Origin: Patescibacteria group bacterium
GTDB taxonomy: Bacteria; Patescibacteriota; Minisyncoccia; Moranbacterales; DUUL01
Assembly: GCA_015493225.1 (NCBI GenBank)
Contig: WGDO01000087.1
Location: 514-64,513 of the forward strand
Direction of reading: 5' to 3'
Length of the DNA: 64,000 nucleotides
A program made the translations under genes and the position numbers. Within the stretch, counting starts at the first letter, position 1, and the number at the start of each line of letters is the position of its first letter. This document shows positions 29,584 to 55,770 of the stretch, one piece after another. Below the pieces are notes generated by a model. That model saw only the letters and a program-made list of their open reading frames with translations, searched no databases and was not told where the DNA came from.

Positions 29584-29800
29584 CAAATCCACCCCTAACC
29601 ATTTTTTGTTCACGGTTCACAGTTCACAGTTCACGGTTTATTTTTTAAAAAGTTTCACAAGACAGGTGTTGGAGGGAAACTAGATAAATCCACCCCTAAC
29701 CCCTCCTTTATCCCATTACGCCAAGGCTACGCGGGACAAGCGCTGGAGGGGAACTACTATCTACCATCTACTATCTACTATCTACTATCTATCCCCCAAC
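29584..29800. repeat. Composite repeat block: aaatccacccctaacc unit, (gttcac[ag])x4, long family A unit and (ctactatc)n
   Basis: gttcacggttcacagttcacagttcacgg at 29613-29640. The unit aaatccacccctaacccctcctttatcccattacgccaaggctacgcgggacaagcgctggaggggaac is at 29686-29760. ctaccatctactatctactatctactatct is at 29761-29792 and overlaps the last codons and stop of capA-like 29785-30951. Confidence 0.8.
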
Positions 29801-33405: not shown

Positions 33406-34251
33406 TTAAAACTCCAAAAACTTCCCTTCCAAATAATTCTTAATTGGCTCGGCGGTGGTTTGGGTAATTTTCTCCGGCAAATTATCCATCGCAAACCAGC
33501 CAATCTTATCACACTTATGAGGCTCCATATTCTTTGGCTGACCACTTTTTATCTTGGCAATAAAATTTAAAGCTACCCAGTGTTCAATTTTTTCACCCCC
33601 TGTGCTGAGCCCAGCGGATGCAGGGTAAAGGGGGTCATCCCCCCTTTCGCGAAAAGGGGGATGGGGAGTTTTTATAATATGATCAGTATGAAGCAAGTAA
33701 CCAACAATCTCCACCTTAATACCCAATTCTTCTTTCATTTCCCTAATCATTGCCTTTTCTGCCGTCTCTCCGAACTTCACCCCTCCACCAGGCTTGCTCC
33801 ACCAACCAGCCTCATTACGAACTTCACCCGCCCGCCGAATTAACAAAACTTCCTTTTTATCATTAAAAATCAAACACCCTCCCCCAACACCAATGTAATC
33901 TTTACCTTTTATTAATTTAGATTGCTCTGCATTGCTAGCTTCTCCGTTAATTATGGCTACTTTATTTTTTCTATAAATAAAAACTTGCCATAAAATTATA
34001 CCCGTAGTTAAAACTCCAAGGCCTTGCCCTATAATTATTACTTTATCATTTTTTAACACTCCATAATATGCCCAAAGCAAATATGCTAGCCAGGCTATAA
34101 CCCAAAATGAAATAGACTGTCCCTCAGTCGACTTCCGTCTATAATTTTTTCTAATTTGATCTGGTAATCCAATAACTTTTACCAATATTCCGATGGCCAG
34201 TGTCAGAAATGATACAACCCCAATAAGTGTAATTGATTGTAATAATTCCAT
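33406..34251 (-). CDS. Membrane-anchored NUDIX hydrolase (3 N-terminal TM helices) carrying an in-frame family C repeat insertion
   Basis: Nudix box GGGVKFGETAEKAMIREMKEELGI. Three N-terminal hydrophobic helices. The 27-aa segment KTPHPPFRERGDDPLYPASAGLSTGGE is encoded by repeat copy 33593-33673. Confidence 0.8.
   Translation of the reverse strand: MELLQSITLIGVVSFLTLAIGILVKVIGLPDQIRKNYRRKSTEGQSISFWVIAWLAYLLWAYYGVLKNDKVIIIGQGLGVLTTGIILWQVFIYRKNKVAIINGEASNAEQSKLIKGKDYIGVGGGCLIFNDKKEVLLIRRAGEVRNEAGWWSKPGGGVKFGETAEKAMIREMKEELGIKVEIVGYLLHTDHIIKTPHPPFRERGDDPLYPASAGLSTGGEKIEHWVALNFIAKIKSGQPKNMEPHKCDKIGWFAMDNLPEKITQTTAEPIKNYLEGKFLEF
33593..33673. repeat. Family C repeat copy (81 nt, 3n) inside the NUDIX CDS
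   Basis: caccccctgtg...cagggtaaagggggtcatcccccctttcgcgaaaagggggatggggagttttt. It has the same termini as 4695-4786 and 11795-11888 and an internal ccccccttt-cgcg-aaaggggg hairpin. Confidence 0.75.
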
Positions 34252-34273: not shown

Positions 34274-35695
34274 TTAATTCCTCCTCCCCCCTAATAACGC
34301 TGGGAGGGTTTTTAGAATGATTTTAATATCTCCCCAGAGAGACCAATTTTCGATGTAAAAAATATCCAAACGAACTTCATCTTCAAAGCTCAAATCACTT
34401 CGTCCAGAAACCTGAGCCATCCCGGTAATTCCTGGTTTAATAGTTAAGACTCGTTTAGCATAATCCTGATATTTTTCCACTTCCAAAGGTTGATGCGGAC
34501 GAGGACCAACTAAACTCATTTTCCCCATTAAAACATTAAAAAATTGCGGTAACTCATCAATAGAATATTTTTCCAAAAATGTTCCCACCTTCGTCTTACG
34601 AGGATCATCTTTGATTTTATACAAAGGCCCACTTTTAATAGATTGTTTTTGAATTAATTTTTTCAAATAAGACAAAGCCCGTTGATTATGCTCATCAGAA
34701 TATTGTTTACCATGACAATATTTATTTTTCATATAACGAAATTTATACAAATCAAAATTACCCTTATGCCCCACTCTTTCATTTTTAAAAATAATTGGCC
34801 AACCATCACTCAACCAAATAACCAAAGCAGACAACAACATTGGAATACCAAAAATAATAATTCCTACGCTTGCCCCCACAACGTCAAAAACTCTTTTTAA
34901 AATTTTTCCCCAACCATCCAAAGAAGTATTTTTAATTTCAATCAACGGTTCTCCTAAAAAAATTTCCACATCAAAATTAGAGGATTGCAACATTGTTGGT
35001 AAGTACTTGAAAACAATCCGATGCCTAATGCAATAATCTTTTAGCTTCAACAGCTTACCCTTATCAACCCCTGGTGTACATTCAATAATTTCATCAATCC
35101 CTTTTAATTTTTTAATTCTCTTAATTCGTTCAATATCCATATGGTCCAAATGCCCCACCACTTCATAACCCAACGAAGTATTTATATCTGTTTGTCTTTT
35201 AATATTAGCACAAAAATTATTCACCCCTATCAATAACAACCTATGTTTTCCGACACCTTTCACAGCCATTAAATACTTTTGTATTCTTCTTAGGATAATT
35301 CTACCAAAAGTCACAAAAACAAAAACTAAAATTCCTCCAACTAAAATAATAAATCGAGAAGAAAATACATCTCGATTCAAAAAGAATAAAACTATCATAA
35401 AAGTAACACCAATGGCTGTCGCCCTAAACACCTGATAAATTTGCTTCAAAATTTTGGCAGTTGTTTTTGTACGATAAAGGCCATCCAAAGCATATATAAA
35501 AACAAATAACATCCCCACAAGCAATAAACCCCTGGCATATTCTCCTTTTGGTATAATTTCTGATTGAGGCAGTGGATATTTTTCAATCATAGAAGAATAA
35601 AAACGCCAATAATAAACCGTTACCCCAGCCAATAAAACCATCATATAATCAATGGGTATTTGAAGTGCGCTAAAAAATAATTCTGATTTTTTCAT
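34274..35695 (-). CDS. Polyprenyl-phosphate hexose-1-phosphate transferase (WbaP/WcaJ-type bacterial sugar transferase)
   Basis: 5 N-terminal TM helices, a cytoplasmic linker, and the C-terminal bacterial sugar transferase domain with DELPQFFNVLMGKMSLVGPRP. Confidence 0.85.
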   Translation of the reverse strand: MKKSELFFSALQIPIDYMMVLLAGVTVYYWRFYSSMIEKYPLPQSEIIPKGEYARGLLLVGMLFVFIYALDGLYRTKTTAKILKQIYQVFRATAIGVTFMIVLFFLNRDVFSSRFIILVGGILVFVFVTFGRIILRRIQKYLMAVKGVGKHRLLLIGVNNFCANIKRQTDINTSLGYEVVGHLDHMDIERIKRIKKLKGIDEIIECTPGVDKGKLLKLKDYCIRHRIVFKYLPTMLQSSNFDVEIFLGEPLIEIKNTSLDGWGKILKRVFDVVGASVGIIIFGIPMLLSALVIWLSDGWPIIFKNERVGHKGNFDLYKFRYMKNKYCHGKQYSDEHNQRALSYLKKLIQKQSIKSGPLYKIKDDPRKTKVGTFLEKYSIDELPQFFNVLMGKMSLVGPRPHQPLEVEKYQDYAKRVLTIKPGITGMAQVSGRSDLSFEDEVRLDIFYIENWSLWGDIKIILKTLPALLGGRRN

Positions 35696-35919: not shown

Positions 35920-35956
35920 CTCTCTAAAAAATAAAGACACTTGAAGTGTCTTTATT
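35920..35956 (-). terminator. Rho-independent terminator of rnpB
   Basis: Minus strand: AAAGACACUUCAAGUGUCUUU followed by AUUUUUU. Confidence 0.65.
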
Positions 35957-35958
35957 TT

Positions 35959-36382
35959 GATGACCAATCTTTAAGCCGGGTTCTGTTTAGATAATCATTT
36001 ATCTACGTTAATTATTACTAATTAACTTTAGCGGTTCAAATTCTAAATTAATAGAAAATACGACTTTACATCAGATAGGGTTTACCACTCAATCCAACCC
36101 ATACTAATGAACTGGATTTCAAACTCGCCATCACTGACAAGCGCGCCGGGTAATTCCGAAAAATACCCCGACACTTTTCACCTTTCTCCAGCTCCTGCAA
36201 GCAGGGGCTGGGTAGTATAGTCTCTGCGGCACTGTCCCTGAATAATTATTACTAATTATCCGATTGGCGTTACCAATTATCATTAAGAATTTAATCTCAC
36301 GATGCCCAGACTTTCCTCCCAGTCCTGAATTTAAAATTTTTTAATAAAAAATTTTAAATTCAGAGCTGGGTAATTATCAAAT
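35959..36382 (-). ncRNA. rnpB: RNase P RNA (bacterial type A-like)
   Basis: Minus-strand transcript contains the P4 5' strand GGAGGAAAGUCUGGGC (rc of 36306-36321), the P4 3' strand ACAGAACCCGGCUUA (rc of 35972-35986), and an AGAAAGGUGAAAAGUG...CGGGGUA...UACCCGG P10-P12-like region. A P3 hairpin and a P1 pairing UUGAU...AUCAA are present. No ORF covers this 1.1-kb gap. Confidence 0.8.
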
Positions 36383-36539
36383 CAGTCCTACCTAATATAC
36401 CAGAAAAACCCTCCTTTGTCAAGATAATTTGTACATTTCACAGAAGTTAAAGTAATCAATAGCTTATCCCAAAGTTAGTGCGGTCGTCGCAACTTTGGGA
36501 AAAATTATTGCCAATAATGTAGATTGCTGTTAAACTAAA

Positions 36540-36790
36540 ATTGGTTAATAAATCCACCCCCAACCCCTCCTTTACCAAAGGAGGGGAACCAAAGAAAATC
36601 CACCCCCAACCCCTCCTTTTTTAGCAAAGGGGAAATTTTCCACAGCTTCCACCCTTTGTAAAGGGGAGATTGAGGGGGGATTTTAAAACTAAATCCACCC
36701 CTAACCCCTCCTTTACAAAGGAGGGGAAATAAGGAAATCCGCCCCTAATCCCTCCTTTATTAAAGGAGGAGAACAAAAAGGAGAAACTAA
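36540..36790. repeat. Tandem array of 5-6 palindromic units (aaatccacccctaacccctcctttNNNaaaggaggggaa, plus the cccccctttgtaaagggggg attgagggggg variant)
   Basis: Units abut directly, each about 40-45 nt. Each is a stem-loop with a 10-bp GC-rich stem and contains an AAGGAGG Shine-Dalgarno-like core. Confidence 0.85.
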
Positions 36791-37111: not shown

Positions 37112-37374
37112 CCGGCCCCTACGAAAATATGAATTAATTTTAAATTTTAAGTTTTAAATTTTAAATGAGTTTTAAATTATCTAATTTTTAATATTAAATA
37201 TACAACCATCACAAAACAACAAGGCTCTGAATGATGCGTAAAATTAATAGAAATTAAAAACTTAAAATTCAAAATTAAATATTTAATCAAAATTCCAAAT
37301 TTTTCAAACATTGATTATTGGGATTTGTGATTTATTTGTTTCTTGAAATTTGTATCTTGGAAATTTATAAAATT

Positions 37375-37906
<532 letters not shown>

Positions 37907-38764: not shown

Positions 38765-38910
38765 GCTATTTCCTAGCTTCCCCCCTTTGTAAAGGGGGGA
38801 TTGAGGGGGGATTTTAAAGATTTTAAAACTAAAAAACTAAATCCACCCCTAACCCCTCCTTTATCCCACTACGCCTAAACGGCTACGCAGGACAAGCGCT
38901 AGAGGGGGAA
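38765..38910. repeat. Family B plus family A palindromic units
   Basis: cctagcttcccccctttgtaaaggggggattgaggggggatttt followed by aaatccacccctaacccctcctttatcccactacgcctaaacggctacgcaggacaagcgctagaggggg. Confidence 0.8.
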
Positions 38911-41086: not shown

Positions 41087-41908
41087 CTATCTCATCAACC
41101 ACACCCACCCGCTCCAAACTACCTCTCCCCACAACATCAAAATAAAACCAGCCAAAATTAAAAACGGACCAAAAGGAATTTTTGTTTTAGCAGTTACCTT
41201 CTTAGTAAGCAATAAATAAACTGCCGGAACTGCTCCTAAAATATACGCTAACATCAAAAATAAATAACTCATCTTCCAGCCCACTAAAAATCCCAATAAA
41301 AATCCCAGCTTTACATCTCCGCCACCAATCCACCGTCCCCGCGATACCATAAATAAAACATAAAAAAATCCTCCCACAGCTAAACCTCCCAAAAAATTCC
41401 TAGTCAAATCCGTATTTACCGACATTAAAAAATCCGGAGAAATCAAATACCGGTATCCAAAATAAATGACCGCCAAGACTAGCCCTCCTACCACCAGCCC
41501 ATCGGGAATAATCATATAACGCAAATCCCAAATTAAAATTACCAATAACACAAAACTAATTGCCAGGTAAAAAATCGTATCAATCAACTCCCTTTGATCC
41601 AACCAGCCAAAAATAAATCCCTTTTGCCAAGCCACTAAAACAAATACTATTCCAAACAGCAATTCCGTCGCCGGATATCGCCAGGAAATCTTCTTTCCAC
41701 AATTCCGACACTCTCCTCTTAAAAAAACATAACTCAACAAAGGAATATTATCATACCAAGCAATTTTTTTTCCGCAACTATCACATTTAGACCTCCCGTT
41801 CAAACTTTTCTTATTTTGTCCCCTCTCCATCACCACCTGCCCAAAACTACCAAAAATTAAACCTAAAATAAATACTGCTATAATTTTAAATAAAATTAAT
41901 CCTATCAT
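41087..41908 (-). CDS. pilD: Prepilin peptidase (A24 family)
   Basis: N-terminal Cys4 zinc motif (CDSCGKKI...CRNCGKKI), the DiS_P_DiS region, and multi-TM A24 peptidase core with the conserved GGGDVKL. Confidence 0.85.
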   Translation of the reverse strand: MIGLILFKIIAVFILGLIFGSFGQVVMERGQNKKSLNGRSKCDSCGKKIAWYDNIPLLSYVFLRGECRNCGKKISWRYPATELLFGIVFVLVAWQKGFIFGWLDQRELIDTIFYLAISFVLLVILIWDLRYMIIPDGLVVGGLVLAVIYFGYRYLISPDFLMSVNTDLTRNFLGGLAVGGFFYVLFMVSRGRWIGGGDVKLGFLLGFLVGWKMSYLFLMLAYILGAVPAVYLLLTKKVTAKTKIPFGPFLILAGFILMLWGEVVWSGWVWLMR

Positions 41909-41919
41909 AACAACAATTT

Positions 41920-42372
41920 TTATTTAATGATAGTATTAACACCACAGCCACCACTTACCTTACCACATTTTCCACTTGTAGAATTGCAACAAACAGTTTC
42001 CATGGTATGATCTGATGGTATTGCCGAATAATACCAAGTGGAAGTAGAGAAATTTATTCCGGTAGGATAACTAAAACCATCACCATCAATTTTTGGCCAC
42101 TTTCCGTAATTCCCATTAATGCTACAAATATCATTCCCTCCAGTAGCGCCAGGTGCATTTACCGTCCCATCATCCGATTTACACAAATAAATATTCTCCA
42201 TTATTCCAGACATTTCCGTCAAAACCTTATTCACAGTCGCCCTCTTTTTTTGCACACTCAAGGAAATCATAATTGCACTAGCTAAAATACCGATAATAGC
42301 CATTACTGTCATCAACTCAATTAAAGTAAATCCCTGATTTGTCTTAAATATACTTTTATTATTTTTTTTCAT
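41920..42372 (-). CDS. Type IV pilin (prepilin-type)
   Basis: QGFTLIELMTVMAIIGILAS class III signal. Cys-containing C-terminal globular part. Confidence 0.75.
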   Translation of the reverse strand: MKKNNKSIFKTNQGFTLIELMTVMAIIGILASAIMISLSVQKKRATVNKVLTEMSGIMENIYLCKSDDGTVNAPGATGGNDICSINGNYGKWPKIDGDGFSYPTGINFSTSTWYYSAIPSDHTMETVCCNSTSGKCGKVSGGCGVNTIIK

Positions 42373-42404
42373 TTTTATATTTTTTTTAAAAATAAATACT
42401 ATGT

Positions 42405-42806
42405 CTATGGGTTACTTTTGACACACCTACTATCTGAAATATTACAGGTGACAGTATCACTCCCACAAACAATAGTAAAAGGTCCTCCATTCTTTAATGT
42501 ATTTGAATTAAAAGATCCATAAGAACATTGTTTCGGTGGAGCTGGCCAAGTACCACTACCAGTACCACAAATTAAACCTCCTCCAGTAGTAGGAGTGGGG
42601 ACACCAAATGTTCCATTTTTCAAATAACAATCCGCCGCCTCTGCTAAAATATTATTACCTAATTTCAAAGCCGCCGTAACCCTAGCCCGTTGTCGACTAG
42701 CTTTCATTCCAATAGTTATCGTTCCTGCCAAAATACCAATAATCGCCATAACTAAAAGAAGCTCAATAAGCGTAAACCCACTTGTATTATTTTTTATAAA
42801 TTTCAT
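42405..42806 (-). CDS. Type IV pilin (prepilin-type)
   Basis: SGFTLIELLLVMAIIGILAG class III signal. Confidence 0.75.
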   Translation of the reverse strand: MKFIKNNTSGFTLIELLLVMAIIGILAGTITIGMKASRQRARVTAALKLGNNILAEAADCYLKNGTFGVPTPTTGGGLICGTGSGTWPAPPKQCSYGSFNSNTLKNGGPFTIVCGSDTVTCNISDSRCVKSNP

Positions 42807-42909
42807 TTTATTATAATAATATTTATATTAATTAAAAAGTATTATTTGAGTTTTTAGAATCTAACCATTATATTATTTCGAATTCTAAAAACCCATAAAT
42901 ACCTTGTAA

Positions 42910-43458
42910 TTATCCACCAGAACCTGAACCTGAACCAGAACCTGAACCTGAACCAGAACCTGAACCTGAACCTGAACTACTAGCTTTAACCTGTGGACAA
43001 CCATCATTACTAGTACCATTAGTTTGGTTGTTATCAAATTTACAACCATTGATATCACAATAAGCATGACATATAACAGCAGTTCCACTAACTGGACAAT
43101 CATATTTTATAACAAAATCATCCGCCGTAGACTCATCAACATCAAGTGCTTCTGACAAAACCCCACCACCACCACAACTTTTAATAGGTGGTACATTGCC
43201 TATACCATAATCACCACCGCCACTAGCCTGGCAAAGCGGACCCCCCGGAGCACTCTCCAAAATAGTACCACCATTATCAACACAATCTGTTGCTGCCGCT
43301 GTTATGTCTGACATCGTTTTTTTAAAAGCAGTTACTCTAGCCTTTTTACGAGCTGGACCAATCATAATAAAAACTATCCCAGCTAAAATTCCAATAATTG
43401 CCATAACCAAAAGGAGCTCAACTAATGTAAACCCCCTTTTATTTTTTATCAATTTCAT
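42910..43458 (-). CDS. Type IV pilin with C-terminal (Ser-Gly)n tail
   Basis: RGFTLVELLLVMAIIGILAG class III signal. The C-terminus SSSGSGSGSGSGSGSGSGSGSGG is encoded by a tandem hexanucleotide repeat. Confidence 0.75.
   Translation of the reverse strand: MKLIKNKRGFTLVELLLVMAIIGILAGIVFIMIGPARKKARVTAFKKTMSDITAAATDCVDNGGTILESAPGGPLCQASGGGDYGIGNVPPIKSCGGGGVLSEALDVDESTADDFVIKYDCPVSGTAVICHAYCDINGCKFDNNQTNGTSNDGCPQVKASSSGSGSGSGSGSGSGSGSGSGG
42918..42977. repeat. Tandem hexanucleotide repeat (gaacc[ta])x10 encoding (GS)n at the pilin C-terminus
   Basis: agaacctgaacctgaaccagaacctgaacctgaaccagaacctgaacctgaacctgaact. Confidence 0.85.
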
Positions 43459-43620
43459 ATTTTTTCCACCTCCATTCTATTTTTGTTTTTAATTTTTATA
43501 TTCTTCTTTAATCTAATTATACCACACTTCCTATTTAAAACCAGCTCAATCCCCTACTAACCTATTTATCTCCCGATTAGGGATAACAAATGTACAAAGG
43601 CAAAAATTAATGAGTAATTT

Positions 43621-43882
43621 GCAAATCTCAAGATACAAGTTACAAGATACAAACAATTTTCAATAACCAAATCCCAAACTTTTCAAACATTGGTTATTGG
43701 GATTTGTGATTTGTTTGTTTCTTGGTGTTTGTATCTTGGAAATTTATAAATTTGAATCCACCTCTAACCCCTCCTTTATCCCACTACGCCATCCCACTTC
43801 GCTAAAGCTACGAGGGACAAGAGGCTATGCGGGACAAGCGCCGGAGGGGAACTACTACCTACTACCTACTACCTACTACTTA
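43621..43882. repeat. Composite: family F long palindrome plus family A unit plus (ctactacc)n
   Basis: caagatacaagttacaagatacaaacaa...ttggttattgggatttgtgatttgtttgtttcttgg... then gaatccacctctaacccctcctttatcccactacgcc...ggacaagcgccggaggggaac, then ctactacctactacctactacctactact. The last supplies the stop of pilC. Confidence 0.8.
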
Positions 43883-45084
43883 ATACTCATCGCCACCTGA
43901 TAAATCGGCAACAAAATTGCTGAAACCAATATACCAACACCTATTGCCAAAACAACCATCAAAACTGGTTCAATAAGAGTAGAAAAATTCTTTACCATTC
44001 GATCCGATTCTTTCATATAAAATTCTGTCACCTTCCCCAAGGAAAAAGACATCCGTCCTGTGTGTTCACCCACTTCCACCATTTGAGTCATCACCGGCGG
44101 AATTTCCTCATAGCGATTTAAAACTTCTGATAAATTACCACCCTTTTTAATTTCCTCTGCAGCCGTCTTCACTATATATTTATAAACATTATTACCAATA
44201 ACATCCGCCGTAATAGATAAAGCCACTGTAATTGGTAAACCACTCTGCAATAAAGTACCTAAATTTTCTGAAAATCTAGCAATATAAACATTATGTAAAA
44301 TTTTACCAACAACTGGCAGTTTTAAAACCAACTGATCAAATTGATTTTTCCCATCTTCCGTTTTTAAATAATAAACAATACCAAAAATGCCCGCTCCTAC
44401 TCCAACAATAACCGCCCACCAATAATTTACCATAAAATTACTAGTCCAAATTAAAATTTTAGTTTGCAAGGGCAAATCCTCTCCAGCCTCTGTTAAGATG
44501 TCTAAAAGCTTAGGAATAACCGTTACCATCATTAAAGAACCAACTGCTATCATTGCCGTAATAATAAAAGCAGGATAATACATTGCTCCCTTTAAACTGG
44601 AAGATAATTCATAATTTCTCTCCATACTATCAGCCAATTTATTCAAAGATTCCTGCAAAGTTCCAGACGCTTCACCAGCTTTAACCATGCTAACATAAAA
44701 ATGGGAAAAAGTATCAGGATGTTTTGACATCGCTTCTGATAATGATGAACCACCATCAATATCAAACATTATAGATTTTAATTTCAAAGCAAAAAATTTA
44801 TTATCGATCTGATTAGAGATTGATTCCAAGGCAGCCAATAAAGGAACTTTTGAGTCTATTAGAGTAGCCAATTGTCGAGAAAAAATTACAAATTCTCTAG
44901 CACCAACACCTTCCCAAAGTTTAGAAACCATCATCGTCAAACTATTGGGTCTTAACTCTTTTAATTGAATATCAGAAATTCCTGAACCCAACAACAATCT
45001 TTCCGCTGCTCGCTGAGAAATAGTTTCCACTATCCCCTTTTGAACTTTACCTTCTCGATTAACGCCTTGATATTTAAAACGCAT
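43876..45084 (-). CDS. pilC: Type IV pilus inner-membrane platform protein (GspF/PilC family)
   Basis: Two GspF repeats and three TM helices. Length 402 aa. Confidence 0.85.
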   Translation of the reverse strand: MRFKYQGVNREGKVQKGIVETISQRAAERLLLGSGISDIQLKELRPNSLTMMVSKLWEGVGAREFVIFSRQLATLIDSKVPLLAALESISNQIDNKFFALKLKSIMFDIDGGSSLSEAMSKHPDTFSHFYVSMVKAGEASGTLQESLNKLADSMERNYELSSSLKGAMYYPAFIITAMIAVGSLMMVTVIPKLLDILTEAGEDLPLQTKILIWTSNFMVNYWWAVIVGVGAGIFGIVYYLKTEDGKNQFDQLVLKLPVVGKILHNVYIARFSENLGTLLQSGLPITVALSITADVIGNNVYKYIVKTAAEEIKKGGNLSEVLNRYEEIPPVMTQMVEVGEHTGRMSFSLGKVTEFYMKESDRMVKNFSTLIEPVLMVVLAIGVGILVSAILLPIYQVAMSIK

Positions 45085-45119
45085 TTTTTTATATTATTTT
45101 TTTATATTAGTTAAGTGTT

Positions 45120-45340
45120 TTAAATCCCCCTTCAATCCCCCCTTTACAAAATGGGGAAACTGTAAACACACCCCTTCTCAAAAAGAAGAAACTAAAAATG
45201 GATTTCCTTAGTTCCCCTCCGGCACTTGTCCCGCGTAGCCTTGGCGCAGTGGGATAAAGGAGGGGTTAGGGGTGGATTTCCTTAGTTCCCCTCCTTTGTA
45301 AAGAAGGGGTTAGGGGTGGATTTTAAAAAATAAATAATCC
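45120..45340. repeat. Family B and A palindromic units in reverse orientation
   Basis: aaatcccccttcaatcccccctttacaaaatggggaaa is the rc of the family B unit. ggatttccttagttcccctccggcacttgtcccgcgtagccttggcgcagtgggataaaggaggggttaggggtggattt is the rc of the long family A unit. Confidence 0.8.
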
Positions 45341-45341
45341 C

Positions 45342-46427
45342 CTACAACTGCTCAGACTCCAAAGACATTCTAAATGCATTAACATCCGTCGCATAGGTCT
45401 CTGCATCTTTTACATCAACTAGCCCCTGCTTAACCAATCTAGCCAATGACCTATTTATACTAATCATTCCCTCGTCCAAGGAAGTATCAATAACATTCCC
45501 AATTTGATGAGCCTGATTTTGTCTAATTAAATTTTCCACAGCAATATTCTTAATTAAAATCTCCACCGCCGGCACCCTACCGCCACCAATTTTTTTCAAC
45601 AATCTTTGAGAAACAATCCCCAACAAAACACTAGCAAGTTGAGCTCTAATTTGATTCTGTTGATGAGCCGGAAAAATATCCACAATTCTATCAATAGTTT
45701 GAATGGAATCATTAGTATGTAAAGTTGCTAAAATTAAATGCCCAGTTTCTGCCGCTGTAACTGCTGTTGAAATAGTATCCAAATCACGCATCTCCCCCAA
45801 CAAAATCACATCCACATCTTCTCTAAAGGCAGATTTCAATGCTCCGTGAAAACTAACCGCATCATCAAATATTTCCCTCTGATTCACTAAAGATTGTTTA
45901 GATTTATGTAAATATTCAATAGGATCTTCAATCGTTACAATATGATATCTTTTATTAGTATTCAAATAATCAACCAACGCCGCCAAAGTAGTACTCTTTC
46001 CATGCCCAGTCGGACCAGTAACCAATAATAATCCTTGAGTTTTTTCCATGAACTGGTAAAGATAATCTGGCATACCCAATTCCTGTAAAGGTCTAATTTT
46101 TTTAGGAATATATCGTAATGCCAAACTAATATTTTCCTTTTGATAATACATATTGGCTCGAAACCTATCTCCAGACTCAACAGTCAAAGAAAAGTCAACT
46201 GACCTTTCCTCTTTAAATTTTTTAATTTGCATCTCATTTAAAATCACCCCAGATAATGTTTCCATATCATCCTTTGTAACCATCATTTCTTTATCCAAAC
46301 GATATAAATCACCGTCTAATCTAATAATTGGATAATCTCCAACCGATAGATGTAAATCAGACGCTCCCTGTTGAATAACATAAGTTAAATATTTCTTTAA
46401 TTTTTCCTCTAATTGGCTTTCTCTCAT
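45342..46427 (-). CDS. pilT: Twitching-motility ATPase PilT
   Basis: Walker A GPTGHGKSTTLAA, Asp box, His box THTNDSIQTIDR. 361 aa without an N-terminal GSPII_E_N domain. Confidence 0.85.
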   Translation of the reverse strand: MRESQLEEKLKKYLTYVIQQGASDLHLSVGDYPIIRLDGDLYRLDKEMMVTKDDMETLSGVILNEMQIKKFKEERSVDFSLTVESGDRFRANMYYQKENISLALRYIPKKIRPLQELGMPDYLYQFMEKTQGLLLVTGPTGHGKSTTLAALVDYLNTNKRYHIVTIEDPIEYLHKSKQSLVNQREIFDDAVSFHGALKSAFREDVDVILLGEMRDLDTISTAVTAAETGHLILATLHTNDSIQTIDRIVDIFPAHQQNQIRAQLASVLLGIVSQRLLKKIGGGRVPAVEILIKNIAVENLIRQNQAHQIGNVIDTSLDEGMISINRSLARLVKQGLVDVKDAETYATDVNAFRMSLESEQL

Positions 46428-46446
46428 TTTTAAATAAAAAAATTAA

Positions 46447-48393
46447 TTAATTTGGATTATAATCTCTCTTGATAGGTTCATTACTATCTCCAGAACTATT
46501 ATCAGCACCATTTTTATCAATTTCACCATTAATATTTTGACCACCACCAATGCTATTTACAGAAGTATTTTCAGTTTGTTTTATTTTTTTAACAGGTTTA
46601 GTAGCCACTATTTCTTCCTCATCTCCATCCTCAGAAGTAACTCTTTGGATCTCTTCCAAAGTTGTTAATCCTTGTAAAGCTTTCATTAATCCATCTTCCT
46701 TCATAGTAATAAAACCATCTTTCCGAGCCTCATCTTCAAGCGCTTTACCTAAAACTTCTTTATCTATTAATTTACTAAAGGTATTAGTGACTTCTATTGT
46801 TTCAAAAATTCCGATTCTACCTTTCATACCAGTCCCTTGACATCTAGAACAACCTCTACCGTGATAAAAAGTCAAGTTACTATTTGGATCATTTAAATCT
46901 ATTTCAATTCCTCTTTCAGCCAATCTTTCTTTACTTACCTCCCTTAAATCTCTTTTAACGGTATCTTGAATTTCTTTTGGAATATCCGTCAAAGGCTCTT
47001 TACATTCCTGACAAATTCTTCTAACCAATCTCTGGGCCATTGCCAATTTCAAAGACGAAGCCAATAAAAACGGTTGTACCTCCATATCAATCAATCGAGG
47101 AATTGCTCCCGCTGCCGAATTAGTATGTAAAGTAGATAATACTAAATGTCCAGTCAAAGAAGCATGAATTGCTAATTCCGCCGTTTCTTCGTCACGAATT
47201 TCTCCAACCATTATAATATCTGGATCCTGTCGCAAGACACTTCGTAAACCATTAGCAAAAGTATACCCGATCTCCGGACGAACTTGACTTTGATTAACTC
47301 CATCCAAAACATATTCAATCGGATCTTCCAAGGTAATAATATTTACTTCTTCCCGATTAACCATCCTTAACATAGAATACAAAGTTGTAGATTTACCACT
47401 TCCCGTTGGCCCAGTTATTAAAATAATTCCATAGGGCTCTTTTATCATCCGTTCAATTACTTCTTTATCACGACCCTGAACTCCCAGTTTATCTAGAGTC
47501 AATAAACCAGACTGTGTATCCAAAATACGCATCACTATTTTTTCTCCATAGGCAGTTGGGAATGAAGAAACTCGAAAATCAATGGTTTTACCTAAATCAT
47601 TTATTCTAAAGCGACCATCCTGTGGCTTTCTTTTTTCGTCTATTTTTAAATTTGATAAAATTTTAATACGCGATACTAAAGCCGGTCCAACTTTTTTAGG
47701 CAAGGTTATTACTGTTTTTAAATCACCATCAATCCGATAACGAACCCTGATATTGTCTGCCATTGCTTCAATATGAATATCACTGGCCCCAGCATCAATA
47801 GCATTCTCCACAATCGACTCCGCCATTTTAGCAATGGGAGCATCTTTTAAAATATGTGCACTTTCTTTTCTTTCTCTTAACTTAAGTCCACTTGTATTTT
47901 CGTCTTCTTCCTCTTCTTTCTTTTTATAAACATCCAACGCATTACCGATCTCTAAAGATAATTTTTTTGTTTTTTTAATCAACAACTCAAAATCATCAAG
48001 ACCAATTGGATAAATTTCTAATCTTTTTTTGTTTTTACGAGCAAAAAATCGTAAAGCATTTTGAGTATTCAAATCAGTTTCATCAACGACAGCTACTTTA
48101 ATCACTTTATCATCCATTTCAAAAGGAATAAATCTAAATTTATTCAATGAATCCACTGAAACAATATCTAAAATATCTTTATTGATTTCTATCGCTTGCC
48201 AGTCTATAGTTTGACTTGAACTAGAAACCGCCTGTCGTTGACTATTCTCATCAGATTGAACAGACGCAGACTGCGTCGTATTACTAGTTTTTTCTTGATT
48301 ATCTCCAACCCCATTAATAAAACCATTAGCTACAATTTCATTCGAATCATTGGATTGATTAATGTTTGTATTGTTCTGTTGTCCATCCTCCAT
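46447..48393 (-). CDS. pilB: Type IV pilus assembly ATPase PilB/GspE
   Basis: GSPII_E_N-like N-domain, Walker A GPTGSGKSTTLYS, C-terminal tetracysteine (CQEC...CSRCQGTG). It also has low-complexity N- and C-terminal extensions. Confidence 0.85.
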   Translation of the reverse strand: MEDGQQNNTNINQSNDSNEIVANGFINGVGDNQEKTSNTTQSASVQSDENSQRQAVSSSSQTIDWQAIEINKDILDIVSVDSLNKFRFIPFEMDDKVIKVAVVDETDLNTQNALRFFARKNKKRLEIYPIGLDDFELLIKKTKKLSLEIGNALDVYKKKEEEEDENTSGLKLRERKESAHILKDAPIAKMAESIVENAIDAGASDIHIEAMADNIRVRYRIDGDLKTVITLPKKVGPALVSRIKILSNLKIDEKRKPQDGRFRINDLGKTIDFRVSSFPTAYGEKIVMRILDTQSGLLTLDKLGVQGRDKEVIERMIKEPYGIILITGPTGSGKSTTLYSMLRMVNREEVNIITLEDPIEYVLDGVNQSQVRPEIGYTFANGLRSVLRQDPDIIMVGEIRDEETAELAIHASLTGHLVLSTLHTNSAAGAIPRLIDMEVQPFLLASSLKLAMAQRLVRRICQECKEPLTDIPKEIQDTVKRDLREVSKERLAERGIEIDLNDPNSNLTFYHGRGCSRCQGTGMKGRIGIFETIEVTNTFSKLIDKEVLGKALEDEARKDGFITMKEDGLMKALQGLTTLEEIQRVTSEDGDEEEIVATKPVKKIKQTENTSVNSIGGGQNINGEIDKNGADNSSGDSNEPIKRDYNPN

Positions 48394-48423
48394 TAGAGTA
48401 AATTTTAATAATAAATACCAAAT

Positions 48424-49257
48424 TTATTGAACGGTCTCTGCAGTTTCAGTAGCTTGTTCAAATAAATTTTCTTTTCCAACACCATCAGCTGTAACTGGAT
48501 AAAATATTTCACTGGTAACCATGTTTTGCAACGCCTGTAAACCTTTTTGATTCAATCCTCCAGTCAATAGACTCTTTAAAATATTATCATTATCAATAGC
48601 TTTTGATAAAACAATTTTATTGTTTTGCTGTTTCTGAAAAACATCAAAACTAATTTTTGCATTCACTAAATCTATTACATCAGCAGTCTGTTTATCTTTG
48701 TCGTTCTGTTTATTATTAACACTAGCTAAAGAAAAACTCTGCGGAACAATAACTCTATTTTGAATATCTAATTTATTCAAGAAATCCTTAACCATTGGGT
48801 ATGTTCCAACCACAGACATATTTACATTAATAGGTACAGCTGTTAATGCACAATTAGTCACATTAGTTTTAATAGATTTATTATTTTTAGCGCTAGAAGC
48901 AACTTTTTTGCATTTACTAGCATTTCTATTTGTAGATTTTTTTGTTCCAATTTTAACTACCATCACACCACTTTGACTAGCATTTTTGTTAATTTCTGCA
49001 ACTAAATTATCATTATTCACAACCTGAGGCATAGCATTGTAAACCATCTTTTTATCATCATCACTAAGTTGCTTAAATTCAACTAAAGCTTTTTTGATAT
49101 TTGCAACTCCCTTTACTAGTGTTTGTTTTTCTGTAATTAGTTTCTGTAATTTTCCTTTATCAGCCTGATATTCAGTCCAAGCTGGTTTTGTTAAACTCAC
49201 AAAAGACCAAACAAAGACAATTAAAGCAAAAGGAAAAAATAAAAGTTTAGGACGCAT
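48424..49257 (-). CDS. pilO: PilO-like pilus assembly protein
   Basis: Single N-terminal TM, coiled-coil, periplasmic domain. Position between pilN-like and pilB. Confidence 0.5.
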   Translation of the reverse strand: MRPKLLFFPFALIVFVWSFVSLTKPAWTEYQADKGKLQKLITEKQTLVKGVANIKKALVEFKQLSDDDKKMVYNAMPQVVNNDNLVAEINKNASQSGVMVVKIGTKKSTNRNASKCKKVASSAKNNKSIKTNVTNCALTAVPINVNMSVVGTYPMVKDFLNKLDIQNRVIVPQSFSLASVNNKQNDKDKQTADVIDLVNAKISFDVFQKQQNNKIVLSKAIDNDNILKSLLTGGLNQKGLQALQNMVTSEIFYPVTADGVGKENLFEQATETAETVQ

Positions 49258-49300
49258 TATTCTAAATATTAAGTATTATAAAAAAATAAACAATTTATTA

Positions 49301-49870
49301 CTATTTATTTTTATTTGTCTTCTTAATTCCCATTCTTGGCAATGTAAAACTGACATTCATTTCCATAGCATCTTCTTTAATACCACTACTCTTCAGGGAA
49401 ACTTGACCCCGAGAACTAATTGCCTTATAAGCATTAATCTGCTTAGCCACTGTCATTAAATCTGGAGTTAACAAGTTAGTATCAATAGTACTAATTCCAT
49501 TATTAACTGCTACTTTTAAATTTTTCATCGTATCAACCGCTAAAGTAGATTGAGAAAGTTGATTTAAAATATTAACTTGTTTAATTTTATTTTTATCAAC
49601 CCCATCCAACTGTATTAATCTATCCTGAAAATCATAAACATTCTTGAAATCCTTATTGGTATCTAAGCTTTTCTTCAAAGTTTTTATTTCAGATTTAACA
49701 ACTACTATTTTTTTCACCTGAACATTTTTAAAATAAGTAGCCCCCCCATACAAACCACCTGCTAAAATCAATATTAAAATACCAATAATTAAAGAAATTT
49801 GTCCAGAAGCTCCTCCGGATGACGAAGTATCACTGGCAATATTTTTTGCTTTTAAATTAATTTTTCTCAC
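49301..49870 (-). CDS. pilN: PilN-like pilus assembly protein
   Basis: Short cytoplasmic N-terminus, one TM helix, periplasmic domain. Immediately downstream of pilM. Confidence 0.5.
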   Translation of the reverse strand: MRKINLKAKNIASDTSSSGGASGQISLIIGILILILAGGLYGGATYFKNVQVKKIVVVKSEIKTLKKSLDTNKDFKNVYDFQDRLIQLDGVDKNKIKQVNILNQLSQSTLAVDTMKNLKVAVNNGISTIDTNLLTPDLMTVAKQINAYKAISSRGQVSLKSSGIKEDAMEMNVSFTLPRMGIKKTNKNK

Positions 49871-49948
49871 TGTTTTTTTATTTTATTTTTTATTTATTTG
49901 TTTTTTGTATTTTTGATAGCTAAATATTTCGTTTACAACTTTCAAAAA

Positions 49949-51094
49949 CTATTCTTCAAAATTAGCCAAAGCTAAACCAATAGCAATACTTAAAGATGGC
50001 GCATTCTGCAATAAAGAACTTTTAATTTCTGGCACAAAAGCAACTCCCTCTAATGCATTTCCTATTGCAACTTCCCTCCCCGCCTGTTGTTGCACAAACT
50101 CCCTGAGTCCAATCATCATAGCCGCTCCTCCACTTAAAATTATTTTATTAATTTTTATACCTTCAAAATCAGCCTCAAATAATTCCACTGTTTTTTTAAT
50201 TTCTCCAATAATTATAGATAAAACGGTAGTTAAAATTCCTCCCGTCTGCCCATTGCCAGCCACATTCACCCCCTGTTCTTTTTTAATCTGCTCTGCTCGC
50301 TCAAAACTAACCTTCATTGAATCTGCAATAACCTGTGTCATCTTATCTCCTCCAACATCAATTGTTCTATTCATCAAAACACCCTGGGGTGAAGCCACTA
50401 AAATGTTACAAGTCTCATGACCAATATCTAAAATCAAATAAACGCCCTGTTTCCCATGAGTCAATGCCCTTGTCAAGGAAATAGAATCAATTTCCAAAAG
50501 ATTAATACTCAACTTACTCTGTGAAAATACTTTTTCATATTTATTACTAATCTCCTTCATTATAGCAATTACCAAAATTTTAACCATCTTACTATCCTTG
50601 GTGTCACCCATACCAATACCATTATTATTTTGGGGTATTTGTTGATCTATGTTATTTTGCAATTTATCCTCGTCTATAACCTGCCAATCATATACAACAT
50701 CTTCTATCTTTACAGGAATATATTTCGACACTTCTCTTCTAATAGCCTCTTCAGAAACTTTTCCAGAAACGCTAGCTACCTCAATAGTAATAATCAAAGA
50801 AGTAAAACTAGGAATAGCCACATTTACTGTTTTATTTTTAATATTTGCCTCATTCAGTGTTTCTTTAATTACATCTCCCGTAAACTCATTAATTACTCCC
50901 GTTTGACCAATTTTAATTAAAGGATCCTTAGTCCGAGCAATAGCATAATTTTTCAAAATAATTTTATCTTTTTCTTTCTTCAAGGCAACTACCTTTATAC
51001 TTTTTGTTCCAACATCAACACCAACCGCCAACTTATTGCCGGTAAATTTCTTAACTAAATTATTTGCCAAATCATCCAATGACTGCATACCCAT
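49949..51094 (-). CDS. pilM: Type IV pilus assembly ATPase-like protein PilM (actin/HSP70 fold)
   Basis: LAVGVDVGTKSIKVVAL phosphate-1 motif and FtsA/PilM-like architecture. Confidence 0.75.
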   Translation of the reverse strand: MGMQSLDDLANNLVKKFTGNKLAVGVDVGTKSIKVVALKKEKDKIILKNYAIARTKDPLIKIGQTGVINEFTGDVIKETLNEANIKNKTVNVAIPSFTSLIITIEVASVSGKVSEEAIRREVSKYIPVKIEDVVYDWQVIDEDKLQNNIDQQIPQNNNGIGMGDTKDSKMVKILVIAIMKEISNKYEKVFSQSKLSINLLEIDSISLTRALTHGKQGVYLILDIGHETCNILVASPQGVLMNRTIDVGGDKMTQVIADSMKVSFERAEQIKKEQGVNVAGNGQTGGILTTVLSIIIGEIKKTVELFEADFEGIKINKIILSGGAAMMIGLREFVQQQAGREVAIGNALEGVAFVPEIKSSLLQNAPSLSIAIGLALANFEE

Positions 51095-55496: not shown

Positions 55497-55500
55497 TTGT

Positions 55501-55770
55501 TAGTTCACAGTTCACAGTTCACGGTTCACAGTTTCTTTCCTAGCTTCCCCTCTTTGCAAAGGGGGGATTGAGGGGAATTTCCATGGCTTCCTCCCCCCTT
55601 TGTAAAGGGGGGATTGAGGGGGGATTTTAAGAATTTTAAGTTTTAAATTTTTCTGCCCCAGACGGACCAGCCTGGAGCTAGAAATTTCACGAATTAGTTG
55701 AAATCCACCCCTAACCCCTCCTTTGAGAAAGGAGGGGAACTACTTATCTACTATCTACTATCTACCCCTC
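55501..55770. repeat. Composite: (gttcac[ag])x4, two family B units, one family A unit and (ctactatc)n
   Basis: gttcacagttcacagttcacggttcacag. cctagcttcccctctttgcaaaggggggattgagggg and cccccctttgtaaaggggggattgaggggggatttt. aaatccacccctaacccctcctttgagaaaggaggggaactacttatctactatctactatctac. The last overlaps the ppaC stop. Confidence 0.85.

What the first reader, a model, noticed from the sequence alone, without database searches (positions are those of the whole stretch)
42910..43458. Pilin gene ending in a perfect (gaacc[ta])10 hexanucleotide tract encoding (Gly-Ser)n: a candidate contingency locus for pilin tail length
The 60-nt tract at 42918-42977 is a near-perfect tandem hexamer immediately before the stop codon of a class III-signal pilin. 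Hexanucleotide slippage keeps the frame but changes the length of a flexible GS tail on the pilus surface. It resembles length-variable linkers in surface proteins of host-associated bacteria. The opposite strand spuriously yields the ORF at 42885-43103.
Basis: partly seen in the sequence, partly recalled or inferred. Interest (0 to 1): 0.5.

Follow-up and report, generated by a model that had tools for sequence, protein, structure and literature searches.

The report
Pilin gene with young Ser-Gly repeat tail
A pilus-subunit gene of an uncultured ultra-small (Patescibacteria) bacterium ends in a recently expanded DNA repeat that adds a floppy 24-residue serine-glycine tail found in none of its relatives; the repeat is real and should be length-mutable, but nothing yet shows that its length varies or that the cell uses such variation.

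Summary

The "contingency locus" reading is only partly supported. Every unit change stays in frame, so no on/off switch is possible. No strain-level relative closer than 66-71% identity could be retrieved, so repeat-number polymorphism is untested.

Best reading: a VNTR-like in-frame coding repeat, analogous to the staphylococcal 18-bp Ser-Asp repeats, that gives a surface-exposed hydrophilic tail, possibly an O-glycan acceptor. One reader error: the spurious ORF 42885-43103 lies on the same strand in another frame, not on the opposite strand. Interest is modest.

The parts
42910..43458 (-). Type IV pilin gene (182 aa), the first of three tandem pilin genes after pilC; putative major pilin
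43432..43458 (-). Prepilin leader MKLIKNKRG (9 aa), before the G|FTLVE cleavage/methylation site
   Evidence: Read from the translation. Gly-1, Phe+1 and Glu+5 are invariant in the family alignment. The prepilin peptidase gene lies in the same cluster at 41087-41908.
42913..42984 (-). Lineage-specific C-terminal tail ASSS(GS)9GG, residues 159-182
   Evidence: Absent from all 32 aligned homologs, which end GCPxVK or GCPxT. The tail after the last Cys is 28 aa here, against a family median of 1 and a maximum of 14. Predicted disordered.
42919..42972 (-). Three perfect tandem copies of the 18-nt unit GGTTCAGGTTCAGGTTCT (core of the tract that TRF places at 42916-42977)
42910..42912 (-). TAA stop codon, preceded by GGT GGA (Gly-Gly)
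42847..42895 (-). 15-bp stem-loop in the 3' UTR directly after the stop, followed by a U-rich stretch; terminator or mRNA-stabiliser-like
   Evidence: RNA fold -23.8 kcal/mol, z = -4.3 against shuffles. The homolog locus L005 has GGGTTTTTGG...CCAAAAACTC at the same place, so the stem is kept through changes on both sides. The simple terminator scan did not call it because the loop is longer than 8 nt.
43466..43473 (-). Shine-Dalgarno-like GGAGGTGG, 7 nt before the ATG
   Evidence: Read from the sequence.
43516..43524 (-). Extended -10-like TGgTATAAT, about 60 nt upstream of the ATG (candidate own promoter)
   Evidence: Read from the sequence. Not called by the consensus scan, which requires a -35 element. 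Inference only.
42885..43103 (-). Spurious 72-aa ORF in another frame of the same strand, reading the tract as (VQ)n
   Evidence: It lies almost entirely within the pilin ORF (42910-43103 of its 42885-43103), and the pilin ORF has conserved homologs.
41087..42806 (-). Downstream partners: pilin-like genes 42405-42806 (133 aa) and 41920-42372 (150 aa), and prepilin peptidase 41087-41908; none has a repeat tail
43876..51094 (-). Upstream pilus machinery: pilC 43876-45084, pilT-like 45342-46427, pilB-like 46447-48393, a 277-aa protein with a faint PilO hit 48424-49257, pilM 49949-51094
   Evidence: Pfam and precomputed Pfam hits on the source contig.

Best explanation
The gene encodes a type IV pilin of a Patescibacteria (Moraniibacteriota-like) bacterium. 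It is probably the major subunit of the pilus built by the surrounding pil cluster.

Its last 24 codons are a recent, lineage-specific add-on, made by replication slippage or unequal recombination at the 3' end of the gene. A short Ser-rich end (like the KASSS seen in one relative) was extended by Ser-Gly codons. The block GGTTCAGGTTCAGGTTCT was then duplicated to three perfect copies.

The add-on lies after the last conserved Cys of the globular domain, so it does not disturb the fold. It yields a disordered, uncharged, hydroxyl-rich tail that should project from every subunit on the filament surface. All units are multiples of three. Further gain or loss, most easily in 18-nt (6-residue) steps, changes only the tail length.

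It is therefore a VNTR-type coding repeat in a surface protein, not an on/off switch. Its most probable effect is a hydrophilic fringe that masks the pilin surface, possibly carrying O-glycans on its serines.

Shown: gene identity, tract anatomy, uniqueness in the family, predicted disorder. Inferred: slippage origin, present-day mutability, surface exposure, any function.
For: Pilin identity and context.

Young DNA-level repeat: three perfect 18-mers, all tract Gly codons GGT (35% genome usage), and Ser codons in a strict TCA/TCA/TCT period.

Lineage-specific: 32 aligned homologs (39-71% identity) stop at GCPxVK or GCPxT. Among 130 fetched proteins the tail after the last Cys has a median of 1 and a family maximum of 14 residues, against 28 here. 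Of 186 pilin-like ORFs in 84 loci, only this one has a GS-repeat tail. The 12-mer GGTTCWGGTTCW occurs in no locus other than copies of this contig.

The 3' hairpin conserved with L005 follows the stop directly, so the tail was inserted into an otherwise conserved gene end.

Disorder: pLDDT below 50 for residues 158-177.

Slippage is active in this genome: paralogous intergenic heptamer arrays differ in copy number, from 3.6 to 5.4.

Precedent: 18-bp repeats encoding X-Ser dipeptides in staphylococcal Fbl/ClfA vary from 9 to 52 copies among strains, which the authors attribute to slipped-strand mispairing (PMC6533592). Repeat number and purity are major determinants of repeat instability (PMC3899988).

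Short Ser/Thr/Pro-rich C-terminal extensions recur in the family (P0007 KASSS, P0008 SEPSTPASPTP, P0009 KKESTGG, P0022 SATT, P0193 ...PAPTPTTTPTPTPPAE). An unrelated first-after-pilC pilin, P0041, ends AASSSGSGSGGGE and is encoded by mixed codons. Hydroxyl-rich tails are therefore tolerated, and perhaps favoured, at this position.
Against: - No repeat-number variant was seen, because no same-species sequence could be retrieved. Present-day mutability is inferred only from sequence properties.
- There are only 3.4 copies of the 18-mer, and the hexamer array is interrupted at every third unit (TCT against TCA). Both lower the expected slippage rate.
- Three contigs on record encode the identical 182-aa protein. 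If these are independent assemblies, they point to a stable count.
- Major-pilin status, surface exposure and masking are not demonstrated.
- The data come from a single metagenome-assembled contig.
Confidence: 0.6

Rival explanations
1. True contingency (hypermutable) locus. The population holds a mixture of tail lengths generated at high frequency by slippage. Selection (phage, host or partner-cell recognition, predators) acts on that standing variation, so the repeat is maintained for its mutability.
For: - A perfect repeat in the gene for the most exposed surface polymer.
- Absent from relatives, so it changed recently.
- Tandem arrays elsewhere in this genome differ in copy number.
- Pili are common phage receptors, and pilin surface modification protects against pilus-specific phages in P. 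aeruginosa (abstract of bioRxiv 10.1101/150227).
Against: - No heterogeneity has been observed. All look-ups return one allele.
- In-frame units cannot switch expression.
- The copy number of the 18-mer is low.
- No other such tract exists in the window's five other pilin-like genes or in any other ORF, unlike genomes that use contingency loci, where many genes carry them.
Confidence: 0.15
2. The tail is primarily a multi-site O-glycosylation acceptor. Its serines are glycosylated, either en bloc by a Wzy_C-type O-oligosaccharyltransferase from a lipid-linked glycan or by a soluble glycosyltransferase, coating the pilus with sugar. The repeat is simply how the acceptor was lengthened.
For: - Known O-OTases act on pilins. 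TfpO/TfpM act on a C-terminal Ser/Thr, and PglL acts on Ser in disordered regions (PMC9829042; PMC12645811).
- Staphylococcal X-Ser repeats are glycosylated by SdgA/SdgB (PMC3794999).
- Ser/Thr/Pro-rich C-terminal extensions recur in this pilin family.
- The same contig carries a polytopic membrane protein with a sub-threshold Wzy_C hit at 2195-3718 (24.8 bits against a cutoff of 31.7).
- It also carries a polyprenyl glycosylphosphotransferase at 34274-35695, about 2 kb beyond the 3' end of the pilus gene cluster (TIGR03025, 335.7 bits), and dTDP-rhamnose pathway genes.
Against: - The protein ends Gly-Gly, not Ser/Thr, so the TfpO/TfpM rule is not met.
- No OTase or glycosyltransferase gene is adjacent to the pilin; the next genes are pilins.
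- The Wzy_C hit is below Pfam's threshold, has no NCBIfam or PDB-sequence match, and lies 39 kb away. Such genes also serve cell-wall polysaccharide synthesis.
- Pilin glycosylation in Patescibacteria is so far only predicted (PMC11623550).
Confidence: 0.25
3. Functionless by-product. The tail is a neutral or slightly deleterious slippage accident, tolerated because the pilin C-terminus is free. It is likely to be lost again.
For: - Unique among about 130 family members and 186 pilin-like ORFs.
- Perfect repeats, so very young.
- No linked modifying enzyme.
Against: - A 24-residue addition to a subunit that, if it is the major pilin, is polymerised in very large numbers is unlikely to be invisible to selection, yet it is the consensus allele of the assembled population.
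- Independent S/T/G/P-rich tails occur in other pilins, one encoded by mixed codons. This suggests peptide-level selection for such tails.
Confidence: 0.3
4. Remnant linker of a modular pilin. The Ser-Gly stretch once joined the pilin domain to a C-terminal module that has been lost.
For: More distant family members of 235-320 aa carry about 90-170 extra C-terminal residues after the pilin domain (P0152, P0154, P0198, P0234 and others). One (P0239) has a PT-rich linker.
Against: - None of those has a Gly-Ser linker.
- The closest relatives have no module.
- The DNA after the stop is the conserved 3' hairpin followed by the next pilin gene, with no trace of a decayed domain.
- Perfect repeats indicate a recent gain, not an old relic.
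Confidence: 0.04
5. Assembly or sequencing artefact. The repeat, or its copy number, is an error of short-read metagenome assembly.
For: - Tandem repeats can be mis-assembled.
- A Logan (k-mer) assembly of SRR10312499 holds the identical pilC gene on a 1428-bp contig that ends just after pilC, so this neighbourhood is fragile for assemblers.
Against: - The tract is only 62 nt, shorter than typical reads and than the large k-mers of metagenome assemblers.
- It keeps the reading frame and ends in a proper stop followed by the conserved hairpin.
- The same 182-aa product is on record on three contigs.
- The Logan contig ends in the multi-copy intergenic repeat module, not at the tract.
Confidence: 0.03

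Closest known systems
Staphylococcal Ser-Asp (SD) repeat R-domains of ClfA/Sdr/Fbl adhesins
   Same: A dipeptide X-Ser repeat in a surface protein, encoded by an 18-nt higher-order DNA unit. In-frame copy-number change, attributed to slipped-strand mispairing, gives 9-52 copies among S. lugdunensis strains (PMC6533592). The region is disordered and hydrophilic, and its serines are O-GlcNAc-modified (PMC3794999).
   Different: There the repeat is a long internal stalk between a ligand-binding domain and a wall anchor. Here it is a short (3.4 units) terminal tail on a polymerising pilin, Gly replaces Asp so there is no charge, no SdgA/B-like gene is linked, and no copy-number variation has been shown.
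C-terminally O-glycosylated type IV pilins (P. aeruginosa group I PilA/TfpO; Acinetobacter and Moraxella TfpO/TfpM)
   Different: Those pilins end in a single Ser/Thr and have the OTase gene next to pilA. Here the end is Gly-Gly after 12 serines, no OTase is adjacent, and glycosylation is untested.
Simple-sequence contingency loci of Neisseria and Haemophilus (e.g. the CTCTT repeats in opa genes)
   Same: A short-unit, high-purity tandem repeat inside a surface-protein gene, mutable by slippage (PMC3899988).
   Different: Those repeats shift the reading frame and switch expression on and off, and many genes per genome carry them. Here the unit is a multiple of three, lies at the 3' end, is the only such tract in 64 kb, and can only change tail length.
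Low-complexity C-terminal tails in other Patescibacteria-type pilins (P0008 ...SEPSTPASPTP, P0193 ...PAPTPTTTPTPTPPAE, P0041 ...AASSSGSGSGGGE)
   Same: Hydroxyl-rich, probably disordered extensions after the last structural element of a pilin. P0041 is also the first pilin gene after pilC.
   Different: They are shorter, at 11-17 residues. P0041's tail is encoded by mixed codons, so it is not a DNA-level tandem repeat. They are rare: 3 of 271 fetched proteins.
Modular type IV pilins with grafted C-terminal domains (e.g. Saccharibacteria PilX1/PilX2)
   Same: The pilin C-terminus tolerates additions that are displayed on the filament (PMC11623550). Distant members of this family carry about 90-170 extra residues.
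   Different: Here there is no folded module, only a low-complexity tail.

Membership tests
Type IV pilin (class III signal peptide protein) | N-terminal prepilin cleavage/methylation motif G|F-x-x-x-E, followed by a hydrophobic helix | tested here: met
   PF07963 37.9 bits (cutoff 21.2). TIGR02532 34.3 bits (cutoff 16.3). G9, F10 and E14 are invariant in 33 sequences.
Type IV pilin (class III signal peptide protein) | Lollipop fold: a long N-terminal alpha-helix packed on a beta-sheet globular domain | tested here: met
Type IV pilin (class III signal peptide protein) | Encoded with a prepilin peptidase, an assembly ATPase and a platform protein | tested here: met
   PilD 41087-41908 and PilC 43876-45084. 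Two T2SSE ATPases, PilM and a faint PilO hit upstream.
Type IV pilin (class III signal peptide protein) | Processed and polymerised into a filament (and being the major subunit) | not testable with these tools
   Only inferred: it is the first pilin gene after pilC, with a strong SD, a TGnTATAAT element and a 3' hairpin.
Simple-sequence contingency locus (phase variation) | High-purity short-unit tandem repeat within or next to a gene | tested here: met
Simple-sequence contingency locus (phase variation) | A repeat-number change switches or modulates expression (frameshift or promoter spacing) | tested here: not met
   Units of 6 and 18 nt lie at the 3' end of the ORF, so any whole-unit change stays in frame and alters only tail length.
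Simple-sequence contingency locus (phase variation) | Repeat-number heterogeneity within populations or between close strains | not testable with these tools
   No sequence closer than 66-71% identity was found in 5.8 billion protein clusters, JGI metagenomes or GTDB species genomes. Exact-match look-ups return only the source contig and a 1.4-kb pilC fragment.
VNTR-type in-frame coding repeat of a surface protein (SD-repeat-like) | A dipeptide or oligopeptide repeat encoded by perfect or near-perfect tandem DNA units that are a multiple of three | tested here: met
   Three perfect 18-nt units encoding GSGSGS.
VNTR-type in-frame coding repeat of a surface protein (SD-repeat-like) | Copy number differs between strains | not testable with these tools
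   Same as above. Indirectly, relatives lack the tract altogether.
TfpO/TfpM-type pilin C-terminal O-glycosylation | The pilin ends in Ser or Thr, which is the acceptor | tested here: not met
   The protein ends ...GSGG. Rule taken from PMC9829042.
TfpO/TfpM-type pilin C-terminal O-glycosylation | A Wzy_C-domain OTase gene linked to the pilin gene | tested here: not met
   The neighbouring genes are pilins, pilD and pilC. The only Wzy_C-like ORF (2195-3718) is sub-threshold, at 24.8 bits against 31.7, and lies 39 kb away.
PglL-type general O-glycosylation | Acceptor Ser in a disordered, low-complexity region, plus a Wzy_C OTase in the genome | tested here: inconclusive
   A disordered Ser-rich tail is present. 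The known preference is for Ala/Pro-rich context (PMC12645811), whereas here the context is Gly. The OTase candidate is weak. The rest of the genome was not available.

The most novel reading that the evidence does not exclude
An episymbiotic or ultra-small Patescibacteria cell tunes the surface of its type IV pilus through a hypervariable, possibly glycosylated, Ser-Gly fringe. The fringe length would drift by 6-residue steps within the population, giving a graded length-variation mechanism for escaping pilus-specific phages or changing partner-cell recognition. That would be the first pilin whose variation is generated by a coding VNTR rather than by gene conversion, allele exchange or on/off switching.
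Probability: 0.1. Interest if true: 0.6.

Novelty: new variant of a known kind. Interest (0 to 1): 0.3.

Why it matters
Type IV pili are thought to be the main tool with which Patescibacteria touch hosts and take up DNA, and pili are prime phage receptors. A pilin that has just acquired a repeat-encoded, disordered Ser-Gly tail shows one route by which the pilus surface can change quickly without touching the conserved, Cys-rich fold. If the tail length proved polymorphic or glycosylated, it would give a simple, PCR-typable marker of strain variation and a handle on pilus masking in an uncultured lineage. As it stands, it is a single-genome curiosity of a well-known general kind: an in-frame tandem repeat in a surface protein.

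Tried and rejected
1. Repeat-number variants. I tried an exact cluster look-up (sequence not in that table), an exact-protein contig look-up (three contigs, one place shown, same assembly record) and look-ups of both neighbouring genes. The neighbour look-ups gave only the source contig plus a 1428-bp Logan contig from SRR10312499 that ends before the pilin. I also ran a JGI metagenome scan (best hit 69% identity, no tail), a GTDB genome scan (distant relatives only) and a search with the tail-less domain (nothing closer than 66%). None allows a polymorphism test.

4. The Pfam 'Serglycin' hit (22.3 bits, below the cutoff of 30) is a compositional match to SG repeats and was rejected.

5. TfpO-type glycosylation as a family assignment was rejected. 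The terminal residue is Gly and no OTase is adjacent.

6. A GlyGly-CTERM, sortase or other sorting signal was rejected. No hydrophobic segment or basic cluster follows the tail (sequence).

7. The lost-module/linker idea was rejected.

8. A literature search for the assembly or run accessions found nothing relevant, so the habitat is unknown.

9. The consensus promoter/terminator scan found nothing more than chance in 42300-44000.

Full report
**What is there**

On the minus strand, ORF 42910-43458 encodes a 182-residue protein. It begins MKLIKNKRG|FTLVELLLVMAIIGILAG and ends ...NDGCPQVKASSSGSGSGSGSGSGSGSGSGSGG.

Tandem Repeats Finder reports 42916-42977 twice. One row has period 6 with 10.3 copies, 91% matches and score 103. 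The other has period 18 with 3.4 copies, 97% matches and score 117. These are the two best scores of 123 rows in the window, and the next best is 72.

Codon by codon the end of the gene reads GCT AGT AGT TCA, then three perfect copies of GGT TCA GGT TCA GGT TCT, then GGT GGA TAA. The perfect 18-mers lie at 42955-42972, 42937-42954 and 42919-42936.

The degenerate 18-mer with up to 3 mismatches hits nine times, all overlapping here, against 0.13 expected from shuffles. No other ORF of 60 aa or more in the window has a Gly/Ser-rich stretch.

- The last expansion steps used an 18-nt unit.
- Two Gly codons separate the last Ser codon from the stop.
- The spurious ORF 42885-43103 is on the same strand in another frame, not on the opposite strand.

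**The gene is a type IV pilin**

- It passes Pfam N_methyl (37.9 bits, cutoff 21.2) and TIGR02532.
- An AlphaFold2 model built on 33 homologs has mean pLDDT 79.5, with a helix at 12-61 followed by a beta sheet.

The gene is the first of three tandem pilin genes. Upstream lie pilM, a weak pilO, two T2SSE ATPases and pilC. Downstream lie the prepilin peptidase and more pilin-like genes.

It has a strong Shine-Dalgarno sequence and a TGgTATAAT element upstream. A stable 15-bp stem-loop follows the stop directly (z = -4.3). A 54%-identical homolog locus keeps that stem through changes on both sides. Together with its position, this suggests, but does not prove, that it is the major pilin.

The window is contig JALUMK010000042.1 of assembly GCA_027039935.1. 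Its relatives are named Candidatus Moraniibacteriota, Moranbacteria or Patescibacteria where a name is given.

**The tail is a lineage-specific, young addition**

All 32 aligned homologs (39-71% identity) end at GCPxVK or GCPxT, or a few residues later. In 130 fetched proteins the stretch after the last Cys has a median of 1 residue and a family maximum of 14, against 28 here.

Of 186 pilin-like ORFs in 84 fetched loci, only this one has a Gly-Ser repeat tail. The 12-mer GGTTCWGGTTCW occurs in no fetched locus other than copies of this contig.

All 10 GGT Gly codons of the tail lie in or at the edge of the tract, although GGT is only 35% of Gly codons in this window. The Ser codons follow a strict TCA/TCA/TCT period. 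Independent codon choice would give such Gly uniformity with a probability of about 3e-5 (my arithmetic). The peptide repeat therefore exists because the DNA was duplicated recently, not because an old Ser-Gly peptide has been conserved.

An unrelated pilin, P0041, is also the first pilin after pilC in its contig. It ends AASSSGSGSGGGE, but that end is encoded by mixed codons. This is what an older, peptide-level tail looks like.

Residues 158-177 of the model have pLDDT below 50, so the tail is predicted to be disordered.

**How it most likely works**

Perfect tandem units are substrates for replication slippage and unequal recombination. Repeat number and purity are major determinants of repeat instability (PMC3899988).

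The closest worked example is the 18-bp unit that encodes X-Ser dipeptides in staphylococcal ClfA/Fbl. Its copy number ranges from 9 to 52 among strains, and the authors attribute this to slipped-strand mispairing (PMC6533592).

In this genome, short tandem arrays inside paralogous intergenic modules differ in copy number, from 3.6 to 5.4 heptamers. That fits slippage being active in this lineage.

I therefore read the tract as a VNTR-type coding repeat. It sits after the last conserved Cys of a Cys-rich globular domain (8 Cys, 7 of them invariant). A free C-terminus there can be lengthened without harming the fold, and the addition should project from each subunit on the filament surface. Surface exposure is inferred from the general architecture of type IV pili and from the C-terminal glycan of P. 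aeruginosa and Acinetobacter pilins (PMC9829042).

Any whole-unit change is in frame, so the only phenotype is tail length. It cannot act as an on/off switch.

**What the tail does is not shown**

The most plausible effect is a hydrophilic, flexible fringe that masks the pilin surface.

A glycosylation role is attractive:
- O-OTases modify pilin C-termini or serines in disordered regions.
- Staphylococcal X-Ser repeats are glycosylated.
- Short Ser/Thr/Pro-rich C-terminal extensions recur in this pilin family.
- The contig carries a polytopic membrane protein with a sub-threshold Wzy_C hit, a polyprenyl glycosylphosphotransferase about 2 kb beyond the 3' end of the pilus gene cluster, and dTDP-rhamnose pathway genes.

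Against it:
- The protein ends Gly-Gly rather than Ser/Thr.
- No transferase is adjacent to the pilin.
- The Wzy_C hit is weak and 39 kb away.
- Such genes also serve wall-polysaccharide synthesis.

A purely neutral, transient slippage product cannot be excluded either.

**The contingency-locus claim**

The tract meets the 'pure repeat in a surface gene' criterion. It fails the expression-switch criterion.

The decisive criterion, heterogeneity within or between close populations, could not be tested. The nearest sequences in 5.8 billion protein clusters, the JGI metagenomes and the GTDB species genomes are only 66-71% identical. Exact-match look-ups return only the source contig plus a 1.4-kb pilC fragment from run SRR10312499.

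Three contigs on record encode the identical protein. If they are independent assemblies, this is weak evidence for a stable count.

**Other readings considered**

- Remnant linker of a lost C-terminal module. Distant family members do carry about 90-170 extra residues. But none has a Gly-Ser linker, the closest relatives have no module, and the DNA after the stop is the conserved hairpin and then the next gene.
- Assembly artefact. This is unlikely for a 62-nt in-frame tract that ends in a proper stop. The Logan contig breaks in the multi-copy intergenic repeat, not at the tract.
- The Pfam Serglycin hit is compositional.

**Verdict**

This is a real feature with a modestly unusual form. It is a type IV pilin with a repeat-encoded Ser-Gly tail, the longest and only DNA-repeat tail among about 270 related proteins examined. 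It belongs to a well-known general kind, the in-frame tandem repeat in a surface protein.

Its 'contingency' interpretation is plausible in the weak sense (length-mutable) and unsupported in the strong sense.

Interest is about 0.3. It would rise to about 0.6 if read-level or strain-level data showed length heterogeneity or glycosylation.

Noticed in passing
window 7569-7708, 22131-22262, 29571-29796, 36536-36777, 37290-37501, 38775-38881, 43622-43894, 45100-45335, 55496-55765: A modular family of intergenic repeats recurs at nine or more sites, mostly just 3' of genes. One copy lies between pilC and the pilin promoter. The modules are: AAATCCACCCCTAACCCCTCCTTT (12 copies), often as the palindrome CCCCTCCTTTnCAAAGGAGGGG; heptamer arrays CTACTAT/CTACTAC (x3.6-5.4); CAAGATA/TTGTATC arrays that form 60-nt inverted repeats; GTTCACA x4; and TCCCCCCTTTGTAAAGGGGGGATTGAGGGGGGATTTT. 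One 109-nt copy pair is 91% identical. They look REP- or MITE-like, or like terminator modules.
   Followed up: partly
window 42847-42895 (-); L005 about 3490-3530: A conserved stem-loop lies directly after the pilin stop codon: GGGTTTTTAGAAT...ATTCTAAAAACTC here, and GGGTTTTTGG...CCAAAAACTC in a 54%-identical homolog locus. The pairing is kept through changes on both sides. It is probably a terminator or mRNA stabiliser of the pilin transcript.
   Followed up: partly
window 2195-3718 (-) and 716-2185 (-): A 507-aa polytopic membrane protein (10 or more hydrophobic segments) has a sub-threshold Wzy_C/O-antigen-ligase hit (24.8 bits against 31.7). It sits next to a DUF4012 protein. It has no NCBIfam or PDB-sequence match. 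In a presumably monoderm Patescibacteria cell it cannot be a classical LPS ligase, so it is a candidate polymerase or O-oligosaccharyltransferase.
   Followed up: partly
L088 2787-3209 (Logan SRR27257866), protein P0041: An unrelated, Cys-free pilin, also the first pilin gene after pilT-pilC, ends ...PEAASSSGSGSGGGE. The end is encoded by mixed codons (tct agt tcg gga tca ggc tct ggc ggc ggc), so it is a peptide-level Ser/Gly tail without a DNA repeat.
   Followed up: yes
proteins P0152, P0154, P0157, P0193, P0198, P0207, P0212, P0232, P0234, P0247, P0252, P0256, P0267, P0187: More distant members of the same pilin family are 235-320 aa long and carry about 90-170 extra C-terminal residues after the pilin domain, so they are probable modular pilins. 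P0193 additionally ends in a Pro/Thr-rich tail, PAPTPTTTPTPTPPAE, and P0239 has a PTPTPTPT linker.
   Followed up: no
window 42910-43458 (-) and alignment A1: The pilin family is unusually Cys-rich. There are eight Cys in the globular part (C59, C76, C95, C121, C130, C134, C139, C154), seven of them invariant in 33 sequences, which implies up to four disulfides in a 100-residue domain.
   Followed up: no
window 33406-34251 (-): A 281-aa ORF combines an N-terminal SWEET/PQ-loop-type membrane domain (MtN3_slv, PQ-loop) with a C-terminal NUDIX hydrolase domain. This is an unusual fusion. It lies next to the polyprenyl glycosylphosphotransferase gene at 34274-35695.
   Followed up: no
window 35956-36389 (-); 17254-17325 (+); 23608-23693 (+); 57153-57240 (-); 57336-57421 (-): RNase P RNA, class A (121 bits), lies between the glycosyltransferase gene and the minor-pilin genes. 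There is one tRNA-Trp and three tRNA-Ser genes, with anticodons GCT, CGA and GGA.
   Followed up: no
window 187-639 (+): A 150-aa ORF has only the C-terminal Transposase_20 domain of IS110-family transposases, near the contig end. It is probably a truncated insertion sequence.
   Followed up: no
L087 (Logan SRR10312499, 1428 bp): A second public sequencing run contains a pilC identical at the protein level to the window's. The contig ends 26 nt after the pilC stop, inside the multi-copy heptamer module. This run is the obvious place to look for reads across the Ser-Gly tract.
   Followed up: partly
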